Below, piece by piece: positions 6,092 to 37,177 of a stretch of DNA of 64,000 nucleotides. Positions within the stretch are counted from its first letter, which is position 1. Each line of letters starts with the position of its first letter. The stretch is taken from the NCBI GenBank assembly GCA_963663405.2, contig CAXXSM010000106.1, positions 22,678-86,677 of the forward strand, given 5' to 3'. The stretch is from a bacterium. GTDB taxonomy: Bacteria > Hinthialibacterota > Hinthialibacteria > Hinthialibacterales > Hinthialibacteraceae. The notes beneath the pieces are model-generated. The model had not been told where the DNA came from. It did no database searches and worked only from the letters and a program-made list of their open reading frames with translations. Position numbers and translations under genes: made by a program.

Positions 6092-9000
6092 ATGACAAAA
6101 TCGATCTTAATTGAAAAGCATAATTATAGTTTCTTCTGGCAATCTTTTTTATTGTTTTGCTTGCGCTTGATCTTCTGTTGGAACAATCATTCCTATGCGG
6201 ATCCGAGTCCTTCCCAAATCCCTCTTTTTTCTTCCACTGTATCCACATCATCCAATCAATCGATCACAAATAAGGGAACGATCAATCGTTCCGGAACGGA
6301 TGATTACGAACCAATCCAGGAGAGGCGGCGGCTTCCCGGAAAACTAGGTATTTTTAGCGCAACGGCCGATTGGGGAGCGCCAGAATTCCCACCTTTGCAA
6401 GAAGAGTTCAAAGCGCCAGGCCGAGTGGAGATTTCGGGACCAATTGAGAATCCAGTTTACGACTTGTATGGAAACGGAGACGAACTATGGATGACCAATG
6501 ATGAAGCCTTTTATCTTTATACAGAGAAAACTGGATCGTGGAGCCTTTCCGGTAAACTCCAGTGGTGTTCCCCTGGCGGGGGGGATGTGTGGGCGAAAGT
6601 CGCTCTCATGATCCGCGATGAAGGGGAAGCGCCGGATTCAAAATATTATTCTCTTATGCTTTGTTCTGGTTTAAAAGAACCATACGGTGATTATATGAGT
6701 ATACAAAAGCGGACTGAAAAAAGGCCGTTATACGGACTCTTTCGATAAAGAAAGGATCGTGAGAAATAGCAGTCTTTTCGTTCCATCTCCCAGCGATGGC
6801 GTCTACTTCCGTATCACGAGAATCACGCCAGAAAATCTGTTTTATTCTGAGTTTTCGTTTGATGGAGTGAAATGGATCTTTCTACATTGGACACGGATTG
6901 AAATGAAAAAAACTGTGTCTTATGGAGTCGTATTAAATAATTACGCAGATAATGAGCTTCTCGCCCATGCGCGGGTAACGGATATGGCGTTGGAACCGGC
7001 GCCTCCAATTGCCATGCGGCATTTCTCTGACCATCAATATACATCTGGGAATCCGGTTCAGGTTCAATTGACTTTGACCAATCCGCTGGAACAAATGGAG
7101 AATGTGACGATTACCGAAAGACCGCCCAATGGTTGGACCGTCAGCGCGATCCATCCTGAAGGAGTACAGACTGATGGGACAATCATTTGGAGCCGGAAAA
7201 TTGAACCGGGAACAGCAGTCTTGACATACGACGCCTATCCCCCGCTAGAGAGTTCAAGTGAAGTGGCAATGTTTCGAGGCGCTGTCAACTCCCAACAGAT
7301 CATGGGTGAAATGGAACTCCCACCATTGCTGACAAATAGTGGATTCCCTCCTGCTGGGCAATGGCGCTTTTGGACCGCGTCGGATAATCTATTCAATTCT
7401 TGTTGTTATCGAGTTTCAGTAAGTGAAAATGGCACAGTTTGGAGTACTCACTCAATTCAAGGAATCACAAGGCACTATCCCCTTGATAATGTCAGCCGGT
7501 TGGACGGTTATCATGTAAAAATCTTTGAAGAGGCCGCGCGAAATACTCCGATCTATGAAAACCGGTTTGGGCAAATCTGGTCTCTTACTTTGGGTGGGGG
7601 CAGCTATCTTGGTTTGCAGCGATACGAACCGGTTAGCGGTGAATGGACCAAATGGGAAATCGAGGAAATCAAGGCGACAAGAATACCGACAGGCGTTCCT
7701 GAGCGTGTTAATATTTCGCTTCTTTCACTGACTCCCGATCGTTTACTTTTCCTTCTTCCCGATCGTCTGATGGAATTTAACACGACGATTGAACAGGCAA
7801 GATCGATCAGGGGAGTAAAGGATACAAATTTGGGCAGCTTCAGGGATATGTGTATCGCCAGAGATGGTGGAATTTGGATTACAGGTTTAAACGGTCTTGC
7901 AAAACTACAAAGTGAACTAGGATTGGAAGGTTCTCTCTCCGAATACACTGAATATCTTTTTTGAGAGGGATGATGGATTTCGCAATCTTTTATACCCCTA
8001 TGAAGACGAAAAGGGAACTTTTTGGGGAGTTGTAAACGCGCTCGGAAATCCAAGAGAATGCTTGGTGTGTTTTGATAAAAAATGTTGGAAAATGCTCTAT
8101 TCACTCCAAAATTATCCTATTGATAAAAGATTGTTAAGATTGATAGGATATCCCAGTCAAAACGAGAGTTTTTGGATTGCAGGTATCTCCTCAATTTATC
8201 ATATTGAAGGACTCCATGAGGAATTTGTATCTAAGAATGTTATCATTCCCGATAGTGTTTGGGATGTCGCTATGGAGCCAAGTGGTGTTCTTTGGCTCGC
8301 TACCGCGCAAGGACTCGCGCGGCATTCACCGGTTCCTTGGAGAATCCCCATAGGAATTCCTCGAATCAATCAAGTCTGCCATTCGATCATTGAAGACCAA
8401 AATGGACGTCTCTGGTTTGCTTGTGTGGATACACTCAATTGTTTTGAATCAGGGCAATGGAAAACCTATGTCCTGCCTCGCAGGCTGTTTGAATCCGACA
8501 CCAATTCACTGTGTGTATTGCCGGATGGCCGAATCGCGATCCGGCCCACAACCGATTCATTATTTGTTTTCAATCCAGAGATTGAAAGCGTCGAGTATAT
8601 CCAACGCCCTGCGAGTCATCATATTGAACTAATCGCCCAACGTAAAAATGGAGGGATTTTACTCGATTCGTACGGCTCAGCTATCGCCCGGTTGGAATCC
8701 TACGATGGAGAACGCTTCGAAACGGTTTTGGAGAGAGAAACAAAATGGGCGAGCGGTTATTCCCGGTATATGATTGAAGCGAAGGATGGGACGATTTGGA
8801 TGGCTGGTGAAGATAAACATGGATTGGCCCGAATTCAAAATGGACAATACCAATTACTCGGTCCAGAAGAGAATTATCCAGGTGGTGACGCGTTTTGTAT
8901 TCTTGAAAAGGACGACGGAAAAATCTGGATTGGTGGACGGGATTCAATCCTCGAATATCGTGACAATAAATATACTGTTGTTCGTTCTGGATTTGGGATT

Positions 9001-25529: not shown

Positions 25530-25602
25530 TGGAGCTGAGGAGGATCGAACTCCTGACCTTTTGACTGCCAGTCAAACGCTCTCCCAGCTGAGCTACAGCC
25601 CC
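25530..25602 (-). tRNA. tRNA-Ala(GGC)
   Basis: Reverse complement GGGGCTGTAGCTCAGCTGGGAGAGCGTTTGACTGGCAGTCAAAAGGTCAGGAGTTCGATCCTCCTCAGCTCCA; G3:U70 pair; anticodon GGC; CCA not encoded. Confidence 0.97.
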
Positions 25603-30312: not shown

Positions 30313-30398
30313 GCCGGAGTGGCGGAATGGCAGACGCGCTAGGTTCAGGACCTAGTGTCCTCCGGGACGTGGGGGTTCAAGTCCCCCCTCCGGCACCA
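30313..30398 (+). tRNA. tRNA-Leu(CAG)
   Basis: GCCGGAGTGGCGGAATGGCAGACGCGCTAGGTTCAGGACCTAGTGTCCTCCGGGACGTGGGGGTTCAAGTCCCCCCTCCGGCACCA; long variable arm; CCA encoded. Confidence 0.97.
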
Positions 30399-30616
30399 CT
30401 TGATTTTACTTCACTTACGATTCAATCTCCAATATCTAAATCAACTCTGTTTTACCCCCTTGGTTACATATTTGGTTACATTACTTTTTTCAATCTATCC
30501 ATTGACGATAGTTCAAATAGTTTACTATCGTTCACACAATTATCAATAAATTTTAAGCGATACGAAGATATGAACCGGTAATAATTTCCCGAAAAAAAGA
30601 CCCTAGCACTATGTCG

Positions 30617-33077: not shown

Positions 33078-33168
33078 TTTCAATTTGTTAGCTGCAACAT
33101 GAAAGCAGTGTATTTTATTAATGTATTTTATTAAGATATAAAAAATGAATAACAAGTATGTTGTTTAT

Positions 33169-34559
33169 GCCTCGTCAAAAAAATCTATGGGTAAATTCCG
33201 GTTGAGGAAGTTTACCAAGGGTATGATACAAGGCGATTTCCAGCGTTCGAAATGTTCGAAAGCCGTACGCCATTTTGGTAGTCACTTTCGCTTTGTTATT
33301 TAATCCTTCCACGACACCAGAAGAAAACTCTTTTTTCGCCCGAAACCAGTTCAAAATCAGTTCCCGATGACGCCGAAGCATCTTCGCAACCTTTTTCATT
33401 GGCTCGATCCGGGATCGCATGGTCTTGGTACACCATTGATCCAAAAAACGGCCCGCCCACGATGCCGACTTATAGTCCCAGAAAAAGTGGAACTCTTCTT
33501 TTAAAAGATAACTACGCACGGTCCGAAGGTTATACCGAACCACATTGGCAAGTTTTTCCACCTGCTTCTCGGTTAGATTCACCGAACGTTTGAGAAACCA
33601 CCAACGGCTTCCTTTCAAGACCGGCTCCAATCCCTTGGCTTTCAATTCACGGGCTTCCCCGGCGCGGCGCCTCATCGATGGCTTTATTCATATGGGCCAC
33701 GATGTGAAAACGATCCAAAATATGGATGGCCCCTTTCGCTTTCTTCGCCACGACTTTGAGATACGCTTTCCCCATATCGCTGCAAATGAATTCCAACTTC
33801 GCGCTCCGCTCCTCACCCAACCAGCGGAAAAATCTCAAAAACGTCTTGGCCGTTCTCTTTTCCCCAATCCAAAGTAACCGCCTACATCCCTCATTGATTT
33901 GATACACCGCAGTCACGTAATTGTGCCCGCTTCCCCATTGCATTTCGTCCACTCCGATGGCGGTGATTCCTTCCAGGTTCCTATGCTCCCGTCCCCAATT
34001 GACGGCCCTCTCCACCGAGCAAAATACTTTGTGCCAACTCGTTTGAAACGCCTCCGCCACTTGCGTCCAATTTAACCGCTTCGCCCAACCCGCCAGAAAC
34101 CACTGATACGCGCTCGTTAATTCGTGCTTTCCTTCGGCCCAGGGAACTTGCTCAATTTTTACCCCGCAGTCTGGACACTCGACACGCCGCATTGTGTAGA
34201 TTAAAAAAAACGCGATTCCCCACAGCGGGACCATTTCAAAACGACGCTTGTCACGCGTGTCGTATCCGGGTCTTTTCTTTCCACAGCCGGAACAGATTGG
34301 ACGATTTCCCTTCCGGGGGCGGATTTCAACCTCCAACACGGTTTTCTTGTTCCATTCGCTAAAATAGACCGAATCGTACACAAATCCCTTGATTTTATGA
34401 ACGCGATTGAGGATAGTCTTTACTTGCATCCGGTGGCCTCCTGATTGATGGTTTGTCTTCGTCGACTCCATCTTCTTAGGATACGTTACCGGATGTCCTT
34501 TTCTATCTCTCCTTCTTCAGCATTCCCTCTTGTTTACCCACTGATTTCTCTGAGGAACC
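33169..34559 (-). mobile_element. ISL3 family insertion sequence
   Basis: Imperfect IRs gcctcgtcaaaaaaatctatgggtaaa and (reverse complement) ggttcctcagagaaatcagtgggtaaa; flanks differ, so no target duplication. Confidence 0.9.
33175..34471 (-). CDS. ISL3 family transposase (frameshifted near 33660)
   Basis: CSGCG/CPDCG zinc finger, IGVDE, ICSDM, LDRFH, SSGVVEGLNNKAK, AYGFRTF. Confidence 0.92.
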
Positions 34560-35502
34560 ATAGTTTGAAGAAGATTTCTATTTGCCAGCGTTCCTTGTAG
34601 ATGGCCGCGATAGTACGGGCGGCGAATTCGTGGTGATTGGTCAACAAGTCGATCATCCGTTTATTTTCTTCATCCCAAACCCGTACCAATCGGAACGTCA
34701 TGCCGGAGCAGACTTCTTGCGCACGATTCGAGGTGAAACGGATCGTATAATCGCCCCGTAGATTCGAATCCCCTGGGACCACTCGGCGGCTGATCAACTG
34801 ATACTTCAAATTCTCTTTGAGCCAGGTGACAAAATACACGCCCCGGTCGGTCCATTGCCGAAACAATTCGAAATCGACATAGGCGCGATCCATGGCCACG
34901 ATCGAGCCCGCGGCCAGATGAAGCAATCGGGCGATTGTGATATCGTGTTGTTTTCCCTCACCAATGTAGGCGTAGGCGGGCAGATACCCGTCGTGATCCA
35001 GGAGCAGGTGAAGTTTGACCGCCCCCTTGGTGCGCCGAAACTTCGCCCAATCGAACAGAGACGCGCACAAGTCAATGACGGACAAATCCAGGCTGTCGAG
35101 TTTGTTCTTGAAGCGGAATTTACGTTTCCCCTGAAATTCCAACTGCGCTTGGCGCAAAAGCGTGTAAAAGAGAGCCTGGAACATTTCCCAGGAACGATGT
35201 TGATTCGCATAGGCGAGAGTTGAGCGCTTGGGGGCGTTTTTGATACCGAGATGGGTTAATTTCCCTACACATGTGGCCAATCCCCCGCAGATTTCTCGCA
35301 AGGATTTCGCTTGGCCAAGTTGGCAAAACAACATGGCTACCAATTGCTCCCTGCATGAAAAATTCTTCGCATAGCAATTCCCGGAATACGTGTCCACGAT
35401 GCGGGCGAATTCAAAACGAGGTATAAAGGCTAGGATTTGCGAAAAAAGACTGGCACAATAAGTCATATCGGACACCTCCAGCATGGATTGGATATTTCGC
35501 AA
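34560..35502 (-). pseudogene. truncated IS4 transposase
   Basis: QLVAMLFCQL...SLREI, RSTLAYAN, KGAVKLH, MDRAYVDF, YKERWQIEIFFK then reads into the ISL3 end. Confidence 0.9.
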
Positions 35503-35573
35503 CTATACAATACCATGCGGGTGTCCGATTCTCATAGATGGACAATCCCTCATTTTTTTATTGGACAAGAGTG
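34560..35573 (-). mobile_element. IS4 family element (DUF4372-type), 3' part removed at the ISL3 junction
   Basis: Terminal cactcttgtccaa on the minus strand from 35573; hairpin atcggacacc/ggtgtccgat covers the transposase RBS. Confidence 0.85.
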
Positions 35574-35693
35574 AATAGAACAAGTTTCCTGGATGGTTAA
35601 ATTAACAGGGACATCCACGGAATCATTATCAGCACCAATTACCGGAATTGCGAATAAAACAGCAAATGCGAATAAAGCGATAAATTTCTTCAT
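35574..35693 (-). pseudogene. 5' fragment of a secreted pilin/fimbrial-subunit-like protein, interrupted by IS4
   Basis: GGAG RBS 7 nt before ATG; MKKFIALFAFAVLFAIPVIGA-DNDSVDVPVNLTIQETCSI ends at the IS4 terminus. Confidence 0.7.
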
Positions 35694-35730
35694 GATCATT
35701 CTCCAAAAGTAAGTTTTAAGCTTAAAAACA

Positions 35731-35808
35731 AGTGGACGGTTTCACAACTTGCTCCCAATCGCCCTATTCGTGACCAGATTAAAGGGCGAAAGATCTTCGC
35801 ATCTCACT
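35731..35808 (-). ncRNA. c-di-GMP-II-like riboswitch aptamer, gene-proximal copy
   Basis: AGUGAGAUGCGAAGAUCUUUCGCCCUUUAAUCUGGUCACGAAUAGGGCGAUUGGGAGCAAGUUGUGAAACCGUCCACU: P1, kink-turn, P3, pseudoknot, canonical AACCG. Confidence 0.8.
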
Positions 35809-35813
35809 TTTGG

Positions 35814-35892
35814 AGTGGACGGGTTCACGACTTGTGCTCCCCTTTGCCCCATTCGTGACCAGTTAAAGGACAAAGGATCGACGCATCTCACT
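35814..35892 (-). ncRNA. c-di-GMP-II-like riboswitch aptamer, middle copy
   Basis: AGUGAGAUGCGUCGAUCCUUUGUCCUUUAACUGGUCACGAAUGGGGCAAAGGGGAGCACAAGUCGUGAACCCGUCCACU. Confidence 0.75.
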
Positions 35893-35899
35893 CATGCCG

Positions 35900-35977
35900 A
35901 GTGGGCGGATTCACGATTTGCTCTCCCCCTGCCCCATTCTTGACCAATTAAAGAACAGGGGATCGACGCATCTCACT
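35900..35977 (-). ncRNA. c-di-GMP-II-like riboswitch aptamer, 5'-most copy
   Basis: AGUGAGAUGCGUCGAUCCCCUGUUCUUUAAUUGGUCAAGAAUGGGGCAGGGGGAGAGCAAAUCGUGAAUCCGCCCACU. Confidence 0.7.
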
Positions 35978-36188
35978 CAAATTTCTTCTTGGCGGACATG
36001 AGTTTTGCGGCTATAATAGAATCAGCCTATGTGGTTCCTTGTGGCTGTCCGCCATAACGCCCACCAGGACCACGCCCGCAGTACCCTCGCCTGGAGAGAG
36101 GACCAGTCTCTCCGGGCGAACTTAATTTAAACCAGTCATTTCATACCTCCTTTCTTTTAGGATACAATCCAACACAATAGGCTGGAAT

Positions 36189-37177
36189 TTAATTGACTTG
36201 CGTCGTTATATTGATCTTTCCACTATATTTTCCTGATCCCATACCTGTCGTAATCTTAGCGCTCCCCGCTAGATAAAAGGTATGAAATCCACAACCGAAA
36301 TTCAAGAATAAATCCGGCGCGCCAGGAGACACATTCTCACTCGGCTTCGCGTCCGCAACTGTCTTCCCGCTTCTCAATCCCAAATTCGACCGTGGAATCG
36401 TCCCCCCCCCGAACCGGATAATTCCGTAATACTGCACGTCACAGTGATCCGGCCCGCATTGGTCAAGACAAACACCCGCGGATACGTCTTCGAAACATTG
36501 TATCCAATATCACAATTCCCAAAATCCATCAAATCGGGACACACAAAAATCCACGCAAACTCCGGACAACAGAAGGAACATTCGATCGATCGCGCAAAAA
36601 CAGGCTTCGTACTTTTCCCCGCAAGGGCGAAGAACGTAATCCGCCCGCTATACACTCCCGCCGGGTCGGTGATGCCCAACCGCGCGCCGATGCGGAACCG
36701 GTTCGCCTCGAACATCTTCCCATCCGAGCAGGCTCCTTCCGCGATCAAGGTATCACCGGAGATCTCCAACGTCCCGCCGAACGATTTCGTCAAGTTCACC
36801 GGATCCCGCTGCGGTTTGATGAACAACCGCCCCGAATTGGCCCCCCCCGACCCATGAAAATCCTCCACCGTACAAAAGAGCTGCCACGTAGGCGCATACG
36901 CCCCAACATCGATGATGATTTCCCTCTCGGAGATGAATTCGATCGAAGAAGGATAGTCAACCCCATCACCCGAACCGGTGTTAAATCCTCTACCCCCCCC
37001 CGATTCTTTCAATTCCACCGAATCCGTGTTTAGCGAAAAGGTCAGATCAGCGGGAATAGGCTTCAGCGCCCCTCCATCCGGGAGAATTTCCTGCGCGGCC
37101 AGGCCGGTTGAGAAAAGAACCGCCGCGGCGAGGAAGAGCCCGGTGTATACAGCGTCCCGCATGATTGGGTACATCAT
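36189..37177 (-). CDS. secreted two-domain fimbrial/adhesin-like protein (frameshift in G run near 36405)
   Basis: Signal peptide ending LAA-Q; each domain ends in a pilin-like final strand (PAGVYSGRITF; GSGKYSGKINIT); GC-rich relative to flanks. Confidence 0.6.

What the first reader, a model, noticed from the sequence alone, without database searches (positions are those of the whole stretch)
35731..35977. Triple tandem c-di-GMP-II-like aptamers with divergent ligand-pocket nucleotides
Seen: three ~78-nt repeats separated by only 5-7 nt. On the minus strand each folds as P1 (AGUG/CACU), a kink-turn (GC-NNN-GAU ... G/AGA-GC), a P3 stem that covaries between copies (CUUUCGCCCU/AGGGCGAUUG, CCUUUGUCCU/GGGGCAAAGG, CCCCUGUUCU/GGGGCAGGGG) and a loop GGUCACGA pairing with UYGUGA-NN-CC as a pseudoknot (one mismatch in the 5'-most copy, GGUCAAGA). 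Established: this order of elements is the class II c-di-GMP riboswitch architecture (canonical UGGGCAC ... GUGCAACCG), best known in Clostridia. All three copies carry a compensatory change (GCAC/GUGC to UCA-/GUGA). The pocket segment reads AACCG, ACCCG and AUCCG in the three copies. Inference: a three-aptamer cooperative or graded sensor, possibly with altered affinity or ligand in two copies, in an unexpected lineage. I know a triple tandem only for class I.
Basis: partly seen in the sequence, partly recalled or inferred. Interest (0 to 1): 0.92.

Follow-up and report, generated by a model that had tools for sequence, protein, structure and literature searches.

The report
Three abutting c-di-GMP-II-like riboswitch aptamers
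Three back-to-back copies of a known bacterial RNA sensor for the signal molecule c-di-GMP share one predicted on/off element, but this copy now sits before a gene cut by a mobile element.

Summary
Window 35731-35978 (minus strand) holds three 78-81-nt units joined by 4-5-nt linkers. Each has the P1 / kink-turn P2 / P3 / pseudoknot order of class II c-di-GMP riboswitches. All three score below Rfam's gathering cut-off (39.9, about 29.5 and 31.7 bits against 53.5). They belong to a 22-copy family in this genome whose helices covary strongly and which always precedes genes for secreted proteins.

Pocket positions 69/70/73 read AUG, ACG and AAG (5' to 3'). Only A70, the adenine that intercalates between the ligand's two bases, varies.

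C70 is not exotic: it was in 16 of 84 related aptamers sampled from other phyla, some of which pass Rfam's threshold. Class II triplets are also already in print (9, Sherlock 2022).

What looks new is the architecture. The aptamers leave no room for separate expression platforms. A 13-bp helix joins the copy-2/copy-3 junction to the ribosome-binding site, which predicts a single translational ON switch.

The window copy looks like a decaying paralogue: its downstream gene is cut by an IS, its upstream gene is frameshifted, and copies 1 and 2 carry defects. An intact twin lies on contig C38. The ligand was not tested.

The parts
35899..35978 (-). Aptamer copy 1 (5'-most), P1 to P1. Pocket 69/70/73 = A35910, U35909, G35906. 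Pseudoknot mismatch at 35940 (A where the C38 paralogue has C).
   Evidence: (31.7 bits to RF01786, E 6.2e-5)
35894..35898 (-). Linker 1 (GGCAU). With the flanking P1 strands it can form the hairpin CACUC-GGCAU-GAGUG in the unbound fold.
   Evidence: MFE structure
35813..35893 (-). Aptamer copy 2. Pocket = A35824, C35823, G35820. Has a 2-nt insertion CA at 35835-35836 that is absent from the C38 paralogue.
   Evidence: partial, 18.8 bits to RF03169; 29.5 bits to RF01786
35803..35815 (-). Predicted anti-Shine-Dalgarno segment CUCCAAAAGUGAG. It comprises the last 3 nt of the 3' strand of copy 2's P1, linker 2 (CAAA, 35809-35812), and the 5' strand of copy 3's P1.
   Evidence: (-19.6 kcal/mol, 0 of 500 shuffles)
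35731..35808 (-). Aptamer copy 3 (3'-most). Canonical pocket A35741, A35740, G35737. Two U.U mismatches in P3. G.U in the pseudoknot at 35746.
   Evidence: (39.9 bits to RF01786, E 2.9e-7)
35701..35713 (-). CUUACUUUUGGAG: the Shine-Dalgarno sequence (GGAG, 35701-35704) plus upstream bases complementary to the anti-SD segment. The likely start codon is AUG at 35691-35693.
35579..35693 (-). Native stub (about 38 codons: signal peptide plus acidic start) of the regulated gene. The called ORF 35550-35699 runs on into IS sequence.
   Evidence: (no Pfam family)
34560..35578 (-). IS4-like element fragment (DUF4372 + DDE_Tnp_1 transposase) inserted into the regulated gene. 99.6% identical to a copy on contig C166.
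33167..34562 (-). ISL3-family element with a frameshifted transposase, cutting the IS4-like element. Four other full-length copies in the genome at 96-99.5% identity, plus one 155-bp fragment on C92.
36189..37177 (-). Upstream gene for a secreted protein, duplicated together with the leader. In the window it is frameshifted by a GG insertion at 36409-36410 (267 aa plus 82 aa, against 328 aa on C38).

Best explanation
The region is a 5' leader made of three directly abutting aptamers of the c-di-GMP-II clan (Rfam CL00127). They belong to the subgroup whose pseudoknot has a U-A pair next to the ligand pocket. Shown here: the architecture; strong covariation across 20 copies in this genome; invariance of the kink-turn and of pocket residues A13, A61 and A69; and G73 in all three window copies. 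Inferred: the ligand is c-di-GMP, with most certainty for the 3' copy, whose pocket is canonical (AAG). The two upstream copies have a pyrimidine in place of the intercalating A70. I expect them to bind the same ligand with changed, probably weaker, affinity. Inferred mechanism: a single translational ON switch. Without ligand, a 13-bp helix forms between CUCCAAAAGUGAG and CUUACUUUUGGAG and buries the ribosome-binding site. The first strand is the end of copy 2's P1, the linker, and the start of copy 3's P1. When copies 2 and 3 fold around ligand, their P1 stems take back those strands and the site is exposed. Copy 1 alone does not free the site in the model. Its 3' P1 strand can pair with copy 2's 5' P1 strand, so it may act through a relay that sharpens the response. 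The output would be genes for small secreted, possibly surface or pilus-like, proteins. The window instance itself is probably a decaying duplicate of the intact locus on contig C38. Its target gene is cut by an IS, its upstream gene is frameshifted, and copies 1 and 2 carry changes at structural positions.
For: - Model matches: E = 2.9e-7, 6.2e-5 and 0.001 to RF01786.
- Covariation on 20 copies: 95.5% of 400 cells paired against 80.2% in shuffles; 14 of 20 pairs changed on both sides; 0 of 500 shuffles reach the observed value; slid controls give 43-54%. This includes pseudoknot pairs A-U/G-C (8 and 12 sequences) and C-G/G-C (11 and 8).
- Between the three window copies, P3 keeps pairing through CG-to-UA double changes.
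- Pocket map from PMC13715770 (whole text read). A13, A61 and A69 equivalents are A in 20 of 20 copies.
- All 15 leaders (single, double or triple) in the genome end 20-45 nt before an SD and the start codon of a signal-peptide protein. The same protein type follows single copies in 2 same-family and 2 same-class genomes.
- The genome has 9 GGDEF matches.
- Platform: the SD is paired with the copy 2/3 junction at P = 1.00 and 0.98 in the two triple leaders. Duplex energies are -19.6 and -19.4 kcal/mol, with 0 of 500 shuffles as good.
- Eight-state model (C106/C38): SD unpaired 0.00/0.01 with none bound, 0.00/0.02 with copy 1 only, 0.68/0.49 with copy 2 only, 0.02/0.50 with copy 3 only, 0.51/0.47 with all bound.
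- Decay.
Against: - No copy reaches any Rfam gathering score. RF01786: 39.9, 29.5 and 31.7 against 53.5. RF03169: 32.1 at best against 40. RF03170: no window copy listed.
- Single-copy folding energies are unremarkable: z = -1.23, -1.41 and +0.11.
- The two triple loci are 96% identical, so the anti-SD helix has essentially one independent observation.
- For the other 18 leaders tested (13 from this genome, 5 from relatives), SD-to-aptamer complementarity is no better than shuffles; the best is 26 of 500.
- The constrained folds cost 31-39 kcal/mol in a model that lacks pseudoknot and ligand energies, so the numbers are only qualitative.
- A70 intercalates between the ligand bases. Its replacement, the pseudoknot mismatch in copy 1 and the CA insertion beside A61 in copy 2 could abolish binding.
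- No ligand was tested and no RNA evidence was obtained.
- The region has only about 2x depth in the runs that hold it, so single-base differences and the frameshift could be assembly errors.
Confidence: 0.6

Rival explanations
1. Mixed-specificity or mixed-affinity sensor. The two upstream aptamers (pyrimidine at position 70) recognise a different cyclic or linear dinucleotide, or bind c-di-GMP with a very different affinity. The array would then work as a two-input gate or a wide-range graded sensor rather than three equivalent sensors.
For: A70 contacts the ligand directly by intercalation (PMC13715770). The arrangement of Y70 in the upstream copies and A70 in the last copy is kept in both paralogous loci: AUG/ACG/AAG and ACG/ACG/AAG. 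Of the 4 single copies of the GGUCACG/CGUGA pseudoknot type (2 in this genome, 2 in relatives), 4 of 4 keep A70, so Y70 in this type is confined to the upstream positions of the arrays here. Small changes in this scaffold are known to shift specificity between cyclic dinucleotides (PMC13715770, abstract and text).
Against: The residues that read the ligand's bases, A69 and G73, are unchanged. C70 with A69 and G73 is common elsewhere (16 of 84) and scores as ordinary c-di-GMP-II (L061 62.3, L070 57.3 and L071 56.3 bits). No SMODS-type cyclase was found (0 matches, genome 82% complete). The two loci are not independent. The Acidimicrobiia doublet L125 has Y70 in both copies, so 'A70 last' is not general.
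Confidence: 0.2
2. Redundant array. The triple arose by tandem duplication, and only the 3' copy (canonical pocket, next to the ribosome-binding site) regulates. The upstream copies are neutral passengers that are degenerating. In the window the whole leader is a relic.
For: The window locus shows decay on both sides and inside copies 1 and 2. Identity between the paralogues inside the triple (96.1%) is only slightly higher than in the flanking ORF (94.5%) and intergenic region (92.8%). Copy 1 has no effect on SD exposure in the model. Triples were found in no other genome searched.
Against: The three copies have diverged from each other while keeping P3 paired through compensatory double changes, and they keep all kink-turn and pocket residues except position 70. 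That implies selection on each copy after duplication. The SD pairs with CUCC, which lies in copy 2's P1 strand rather than in copy 3, so copy 2 is built into the platform. In the C38 locus all three copies lack the window-specific defects.
Confidence: 0.17
3. Not a riboswitch: a repeated intergenic element or a short coding region that only resembles the class II consensus.
For: All scores are below Rfam's gathering scores. Mechanical ORFs overlap the array: 35742-35891 on the minus strand (49 aa) and 35749-35943 on the plus strand (64 aa). Folding z-scores are weak.
Against: There is covariation in three helices including the pseudoknot. The position is fixed, 20-45 nt before the start codons of secreted proteins, in all 15 leaders. 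The same RNA-gene pairing is found in other genera. The same subgroup passes Rfam thresholds in other phyla (20 matches in 18 loci).
Confidence: 0.02

Closest known systems
c-di-GMP-II riboswitch (GEMM-II; Rfam RF01786; crystal structure 3Q3Z)
   Same: Same order of P1, kink-turn P2, P3 and loop-to-3'-tail pseudoknot. Same pocket residues A13, A61, A69 and G73. The 3' copy also has A70. Placed before genes for secreted or surface proteins.
   Different: Scores 29.5-39.9 bits against a cut-off of 53.5. The pseudoknot pair next to the pocket is U-A instead of G-C. P1 has an A.C mismatch or bulge. Position 70 is U or C in two of the three copies.
c-di-GMP-II-GAG and c-di-GMP-II-GCG variants (Rfam RF03169, RF03170)
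   Same: They share the GGUC.../...GA pseudoknot form. The GCG variant also has C at position 70 (consensus seen).
   Different: Both variants have G at position 69; every copy here has A. Scores are below both cut-offs. From recall, not from any call: their ligands had not been established when they were described (Weinberg et al. 2017 PNAS, not held here).
Tandem c-di-GMP-II riboswitches: 59 doublets and 9 triplets, mostly Paraclostridium (Sherlock et al. 2022, PMC9481103)
   Same: Three class II aptamers in one 5' leader, ahead of a surface-protein gene.
   Different: That review lists them under 'multiple expression platforms / pseudo-cooperative'. Here the linkers are 4-5 nt with one predicted platform. 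The lineage and aptamer subgroup differ. I could not see their sequences or supplements, so some of their triplets may also abut.
Tandem glycine riboswitch: adjacent homologous aptamers with a single expression platform
   Same: Homologous aptamers immediately adjacent, followed by one expression platform. This is the architecture the review calls 'cooperative riboswitch aptamers'.
   Different: Three aptamers rather than two, and a different fold and ligand. No evidence here for inter-aptamer tertiary contacts. The coupling proposed here is through shared or competing P1 strands.
Triple c-di-GMP-I riboswitch of Bacillus thuringiensis (cited in PMC9481103)
   Same: Three c-di-GMP aptamers in series that give a more digital response, regulating a surface protein.
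   Different: Class I fold. The review describes it as a triplet c-di-GMP-I system with more digital expression characteristics; I did not see its spacing.
Abutting doublet in an Acidimicrobiia genome
   Same: Same GGUCACG/CGUGA pseudoknot type. 7-nt linker. Pyrimidine at position 70 (C, then U). Upstream of a secreted protein.
   Different: Two copies rather than three. The second copy has A at position 73. No A70 copy. Different phylum.

Membership tests
c-di-GMP-II riboswitch (RF01786) | Score at or above Rfam's gathering threshold (53.5 bits) | tested here: not met
   39.9 (3' copy), 31.7 (5' copy) and 29.5 (middle copy) bits. No hit at gathering in the window.
c-di-GMP-II riboswitch (RF01786) | Secondary structure P1, P2 with kink-turn, P3 and loop-to-3'-tail pseudoknot, supported by covariation | tested here: met
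   20 copies from this genome: 95.5% paired; 14 of 20 pairs changed on both sides; 0 of 500 shuffles; slid controls 43-54%. Kink-turn GA and AG invariant. P1 was checked per sequence only.
c-di-GMP-II riboswitch (RF01786) | Ligand-contact residues A13, A61, A69, A70, G73 (3Q3Z numbering, from PMC13715770) | tested here: inconclusive
   A13, A61, A69 and G73 are present in 3 of 3 window copies. A70 is present in 1 of 3 (U and C in the other two).
c-di-GMP-II riboswitch (RF01786) | Selective binding of c-di-GMP | not testable with these tools
   Needs in-line probing or ITC. Indirect support only: 9 GGDEF matches in the genome.
c-di-GMP-II-GAG variant (RF03169) | G at position 69 with A70 and G73; gathering score 40 bits | tested here: not met
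   Position 69 is A in all three copies. The best window score is 32.1 bits, for the 3' copy. Consensus GGCGA-GA-CCG seen.
c-di-GMP-II-GCG variant (RF03170) | G69, C70, G73; gathering score 47.9 bits | tested here: not met
   Position 69 is A. No window copy is among the 12 matches at E <= 1. Consensus GGCGA-GC-CCG seen.
Pseudo-cooperative tandem riboswitches (each aptamer with its own expression platform) | An expression platform (terminator or SD-sequestering element) after each aptamer | tested here: not met
   Linkers are 5 and 4 nt. No terminator-like site lies between the copies; the one minus-strand terminator-like site (35786-35800) lies inside copy 3 at its P3 5' strand.
Tandem aptamers with a single expression platform (glycine-type 'cooperative' architecture) | Adjacent homologous aptamers followed by one expression platform | tested here: met
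   Three abutting aptamers. One predicted SD-sequestering helix, -19.6 kcal/mol, 0 of 500 shuffles.
Tandem aptamers with a single expression platform (glycine-type 'cooperative' architecture) | Cooperative ligand binding (Hill coefficient above 1) | not testable with these tools
   Only a secondary-structure state model. Needs binding or reporter titrations.

The most novel reading that the evidence does not exclude
The three aptamers form one integrated device of a kind not described for class II. Neighbouring aptamers are coupled because they compete for each other's identical P1 strands. The ribosome-binding site is held by a helix spanning the junction of aptamers 2 and 3. The upstream aptamers, with a pyrimidine in place of the intercalating A70, are tuned to a different affinity or a different dinucleotide. 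The leader would then compute a steep or two-input response rather than simply repeating one sensor. Alongside it, the genome's second subtype (pocket A-Y-C, with G73 replaced by C plus one extra base) could be an unrecognised variant class with its own ligand.
Probability: 0.15. Interest if true: 0.8.

Novelty: new variant of a known kind. Interest (0 to 1): 0.5.

Why it matters
Class II c-di-GMP riboswitches are well understood as single aptamers, and tandem copies have been catalogued as independent switches in series. A natural leader with three class II aptamers and only one expression platform would be new. Its sequestering helix is built from P1 strands of two neighbouring aptamers. That would be a compact, testable model for how RNA alone can sharpen or combine second-messenger signals. 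The natural A70-to-pyrimidine series in otherwise near-identical aptamers is a ready-made experiment on what the intercalating adenine contributes to affinity and specificity. This is topical because small changes in this scaffold switch it between cyclic dinucleotides (PMC13715770). The 22-copy expansion, against one copy at most in the other 34 genomes held for the phylum, points to an unusually RNA-centred c-di-GMP regulon of unknown secreted proteins. Against this, the window's own copy is probably a relic. Experiments should use the intact C38 leader.

Tried and rejected
- **Rfam at gathering thresholds.** Only two tRNAs matched in the window.
- **Thermodynamic stability of single copies.** Not distinctive: z = -1.23, -1.41 and +0.11.
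- **SD sequestration as a general mechanism.** Rejected for the single-copy leaders. The partition function puts the SD on aptamer bases at P >= 0.5 in 9 of 15 leaders. But only the 2 triples among the 20 leaders tested beat 500 shuffles; the next best is 26 of 500.
- **Intrinsic terminator after copy 3.** The scan found none there. The U-run after P1 is absorbed into a weak G.U-rich hairpin in the MFE fold. I dropped transcription termination as the main platform.
- **Function of the regulated proteins.**
  - Pfam: nothing for the stub, the upstream protein, or the 134- and 182-aa proteins of C38. Only sub-threshold WxLIP_PGBD hits for the 546- and 569-aa proteins. LRR_4 and PD40 for two other targets.
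  - NCBIfam: one sub-threshold hit in 10 proteins.
  - The search for homologous proteins found only the query itself.
  - The profile search found 8 proteins in 1.84 billion.
  - The AlphaFold model had pLDDT 38.8 and was not used for a fold search.
- **Lineage.** An RpoB look-alike search gave Verrucomicrobiota and Planctomycetota clusters.
- **Independent abutting tandems in metagenomes.** The pattern scan gave 16 stretches. None matched model R1, and all looked like coding sequence or unrelated repeats on inspection. The pattern was narrow (exact pseudoknot words), so this is weak evidence of rarity.
- **Expression.** No RNA holder was listed. Run X6 is labelled metatranscriptomic but flagged 'probably DNA'. 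It holds a 198-nt contig of the C38-type copies 1-2, which says nothing about transcription.
- **Literature on A70 mutants or Y70 variants.** Searches, and passages, gave no data. Smith et al. 2011 PNAS and Weinberg et al. 2017 PNAS are not held. Weinberg et al. 2017 NAR does not discuss the variants in its main text. Supplements were closed and could hold variant tables and the sequences of the published triplets.
- **Claim 'not in print'.** That abutting class II triplets with one platform are not in print rests only.
Full report
**What is there**

On the minus strand of window 35731-35978 lie three units of 80, 81 and 78 nt. They are joined by the linkers GGCAU and CAAA. Tandem Repeats Finder reports them as one array: period 85, 3.0 copies, 81% matches.

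Each unit reads P1 (G)AGUGAG...CCACU(C), then P2 UGC/GCA with a GA...GGAG kink-turn signature. A 9-10-bp P3 follows, then a loop GGUCACG that can pair with CGUGA..CC in the 3' tail.

Rfam at gathering thresholds finds only two tRNAs in the window. A permissive scan of 501 nt matches the outer copies to c-di-GMP-II (RF01786) at 39.9 bits (E 2.9e-7) and 31.7 bits (E 6.2e-5). The middle copy gets only a partial match there. In the whole-genome search it scores 29.5 bits, E 0.001. The gathering score is 53.5, so none qualifies formally.

**A family, not an isolated oddity**

The window lies in an 8.44-Mb draft genome: 170 contigs, 82% complete. RF01786 finds 21 sub-threshold matches there. A covariance model built from 20 of them (R1) finds 22.

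They fall into two sequence subtypes:
- one with a pseudoknot of the GGUCRCG/CGYGA form and tail A-N-CC-G. It has 9 copies: this triple, a second triple on contig C38, two singles on C22, and one on C23 with G-C in place of A-U at one pseudoknot pair;
- one with GGUCGCC/GGCGA and tail A-Y-CC-CC, with 11 aligned copies.

On the 20-sequence alignment, P2, P3 and the pseudoknot are paired in 95.5% of 400 cells, against 80.2% after shuffling. Fourteen of 20 pairs change on both sides. None of 500 shuffles reaches the observed values, and sliding the partners by 1-3 columns drops pairing to 43-54%. Two pseudoknot pairs switch between A-U and G-C (8 and 12 sequences) and between C-G and G-C (11 and 8).

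Among the three window copies alone, P3 differs by compensatory CG-to-UA changes. Each copy has therefore been kept foldable since the duplication. Folding energies of the single copies are not distinctive (z = -1.23, -1.41, +0.11). The case rests on covariation and model matches.

**Context**

All 15 leaders in the genome end 20-45 nt before a Shine-Dalgarno sequence and the start of a protein with a signal peptide. Two targets carry LRR_4 or PD40 repeats. Most have no Pfam or NCBIfam family.

In the 35 genomes held for this phylum, 6 including this one carry the motif. Only this one has more than a single copy. Single copies in relatives precede the same kinds of small secreted proteins. That family is tiny: 8 proteins in 1.84 billion representatives.

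The genome has 9 GGDEF matches. No EAL or SMODS match was found, in an incomplete genome.

**The pocket**

PMC13715770 (whole text read) restates the contacts of structure 3Q3Z:
- A61 forms the ceiling.
- The sugar edge of A69 reads G-alpha.
- A70 intercalates between the two ligand bases.
- O6 of G73 reads G-beta.
- A13 forms the floor.

The cmscan alignments show that Rfam model positions are these numbers minus one.

The copies read A-U-G, A-C-G and A-A-G at positions 69/70/73, going 5' to 3'. A13, A61 and A69 equivalents are A in all 20 aligned copies.

Alignments to Rfam's two variant families show that their names encode the same three positions. GAG is GGCGA-GA-CCG and GCG is GGCGA-GC-CCG. 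Both have G69, which no copy here has.

I examined the 80 that were listed. They come mainly from Acidimicrobiia and other Actinomycetota, Chloroflexota and Gemmatimonadota. In 84 matches, position 70 was A 64, C 16, U 2 and G 2, and position 73 was G in 75.

Of 18 of these loci given to Rfam, 20 matches passed a gathering score: 3 for RF01786, 11 for GAG and 6 for GCG. Aptamers with A69-C70-G73 passed RF01786 itself (L061 62.3, L070 57.3, L071 56.3 bits). So C70 is a recurrent natural state inside the known clan. U70 is rarer. I found no binding data for either (two key papers are not held).

**Tandem arrangement against the literature**

Sherlock et al. 2022 (PMC9481103; passages read) report 59 doublets and 9 triplets of c-di-GMP-II. 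Most are upstream of a surface-anchor gene in Paraclostridium. The paper lists them among pseudo-cooperative systems with multiple expression platforms. It accepted gaps of up to 300 nt and states that platforms were not evaluated comprehensively.

A class II triple is therefore known. Here the linkers are 4-5 nt, so separate platforms cannot exist. This fits the review's other category, adjacent homologous aptamers with a single platform, for which class II is not listed.

Among 86 loci from other genomes searched with R1, I found one abutting pair. It is L125, from an Acidimicrobiia genome, with a 7-nt linker and C70 then U70, before a secreted protein. A narrow metagenome pattern scan found no further example.

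**Predicted mechanism (inference)**

In unconstrained folds of both triple leaders, the SD GGAG pairs with CUCC at the copy 2/3 junction, at P = 1.00 and 0.98. This is part of a 13-bp helix between CUCCAAAAGUGAG (window 35803-35815) and CUUACUUUUGGAG (35701-35713). Its duplex energy is -19.6 kcal/mol in the window and -19.4 on C38. None of 500 shuffled SD windows does as well.

The first strand consists of the last bases of copy 2's P1, the linker, and the 5' strand of copy 3's P1. Ligand-stabilised P1 formation in those two aptamers should therefore release the ribosome-binding site. That makes it an ON switch, in line with c-di-GMP turning on surface structures.

Forcing the helices of chosen aptamers gives these SD exposures for C106 / C38:

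| Aptamers bound | P(SD unpaired) |
|---|---|
| none | 0.00 / 0.01 |
| copy 1 only | 0.00 / 0.02 |
| copy 2 only | 0.68 / 0.49 |
| copy 3 only | 0.02 / 0.50 |
| all three | 0.51 / 0.47 |

Because all three P1 stems share one sequence, the 3' strand of copy 1 pairs with the 5' strand of copy 2 in the unbound fold. This offers a relay by which copy 1 could matter.

The limits of this model:
- The two loci are 96% identical, so this is in effect one observation.
- The model lacks pseudoknot and ligand energies.
- The other 18 leaders tested (13 from this genome, 5 from relatives) show no significant SD complementarity.

**State of the window's copy**

A 2.5-kb stretch comprising the upstream gene and the triple is duplicated on contig C38 at 90.8% identity. 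The similarity ends about 8 nt after the last aptamer. On C38 an intact operon follows: secreted proteins of 134 and 182 aa, then a 569-aa protein.

In the window the downstream ORF keeps about 38 native codons. It then runs into an IS4-like element whose end is at 35578, 99.6% identical to a copy on C166. That element is itself cut by an ISL3 element at 33167-34562, which has four other full-length copies.

Independent contigs from two runs of one sample start 33 nt inside the IS end and continue into the leader. This supports the junction, at about 2x depth.

The upstream gene is frameshifted by a GG insertion at 36409-36410.

Within the triple (248 of 258 identical), the window differs from C38 at these structural positions:
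- a pseudoknot C-to-A change in copy 1 (35940);
- a CA insertion beside the A61 equivalent in copy 2 (35835-35836);
- a G-C to G.U change in copy 3's pseudoknot (35746);
- U instead of C at position 70 of copy 1 (35909).

I read the window locus as a decaying paralogue. The caveat is that low coverage could have produced some of these differences.

**Verdict**

The claims of a unique compensatory change and of a first class II triple do not hold. The pocket variation is real, but it concerns one residue (A70), and its C state is common elsewhere.

What remains of interest:
- the abutting three-aptamer, single-platform design, with a junction-spanning anti-SD;
- the natural A/C/U series at the intercalating position;
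- the 22-copy expansion in this genome;
- a second subtype with G73 replaced by C.

I rate it a new variant of a known kind, with interest 0.5.

Noticed in passing
G000 contigs C130 (77644-87968, four copies), C149:52440-52527, C6:40661-40749, C55 (4057-4145, 5876-5964, weak 7675-7763), C18:33777-33950 (abutting doublet), C85:5094-5178, C27:4911-5002; loci L004-L008, L011, L013, L014, L016, L017, L020, L050, L051: A second aptamer subtype with pseudoknot GGUCGCC/GGCGA and pocket 69/70/73 = A-Y-C: G73 is replaced by C, with one extra base before P1. It has 11 aligned copies, plus 2 weaker ones, in this genome and one each in two same-class genomes (G028, G031). Its targets are LRR, PD40 and unnamed secreted proteins. 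It scores 31-44 bits to RF01786. Since G73 reads one ligand base, this is the more radical pocket change and a candidate variant class.
   Followed up: partly
G000:C38:19821-20076 (loci L010, L012, L015) and downstream to about 22826: An intact paralogue of the window's triple leader (pockets ACG, ACG, AAG; no pseudoknot mismatch, no CA insertion). It is followed by genes for secreted proteins of 134 and 182 aa and a 569-aa protein with a sub-threshold WxLIP_PGBD match. This is the better object for experiments.
   Followed up: yes
window 33167-35578: Nested insertion sequences: an ISL3-family element with a frameshifted transposase (274 + 166 aa) sits inside an IS4-like element (DUF4372 + DDE_Tnp_1). 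The rest of the IS4-like element and of the interrupted gene was not found beyond 33167.
   Followed up: partly
window 36409-36410: A GG insertion in a G-run frameshifts the upstream secreted-protein gene relative to its 328-aa paralogue on C38. Depth here is about 2x, so an assembly error is possible.
   Followed up: partly
L125:1193-1368 (Acidimicrobiia MAG record): An abutting doublet of the same pseudoknot type with a 7-nt linker. Pockets are A-C-G and then A-U-A. It lies upstream of a secreted protein. Only the first copy passes an Rfam threshold (RF03170, 50.8 bits).
   Followed up: partly
whole genome G000 against 34 other genomes of the phylum: The motif has expanded to 22 copies in this genome. 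The five other genomes that carry it have one copy each, and 29 have none at E <= 0.001. Completeness of the genomes searched ranges from 68 to 99%.
   Followed up: yes
G000:C130:82835-82922 and downstream (L016): One of the four C130 copies precedes a start codon whose reading frame stops after about 30 codons, while its neighbours precede intact 305-323-aa paralogues. This is possibly another broken target gene.
   Followed up: no
window 25530-25602 (-) and 30313-30395 (+): Two tRNA genes (66.2 and 57.3 bits). The second is 83 nt with a long variable arm. The mechanical ORF 30327-30581 that overlaps it is probably not a gene.
   Followed up: no
window 35820-36017, run X6: A run from a different study (a sediment metagenome) holds a 198-nt contig that matches the C38-type version of copies 1-2: it shares six of the C38-specific letters, lacks the CA insertion, and has one further difference at 35953. 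A close relative of the leader therefore occurs in at least one other sample.
   Followed up: no
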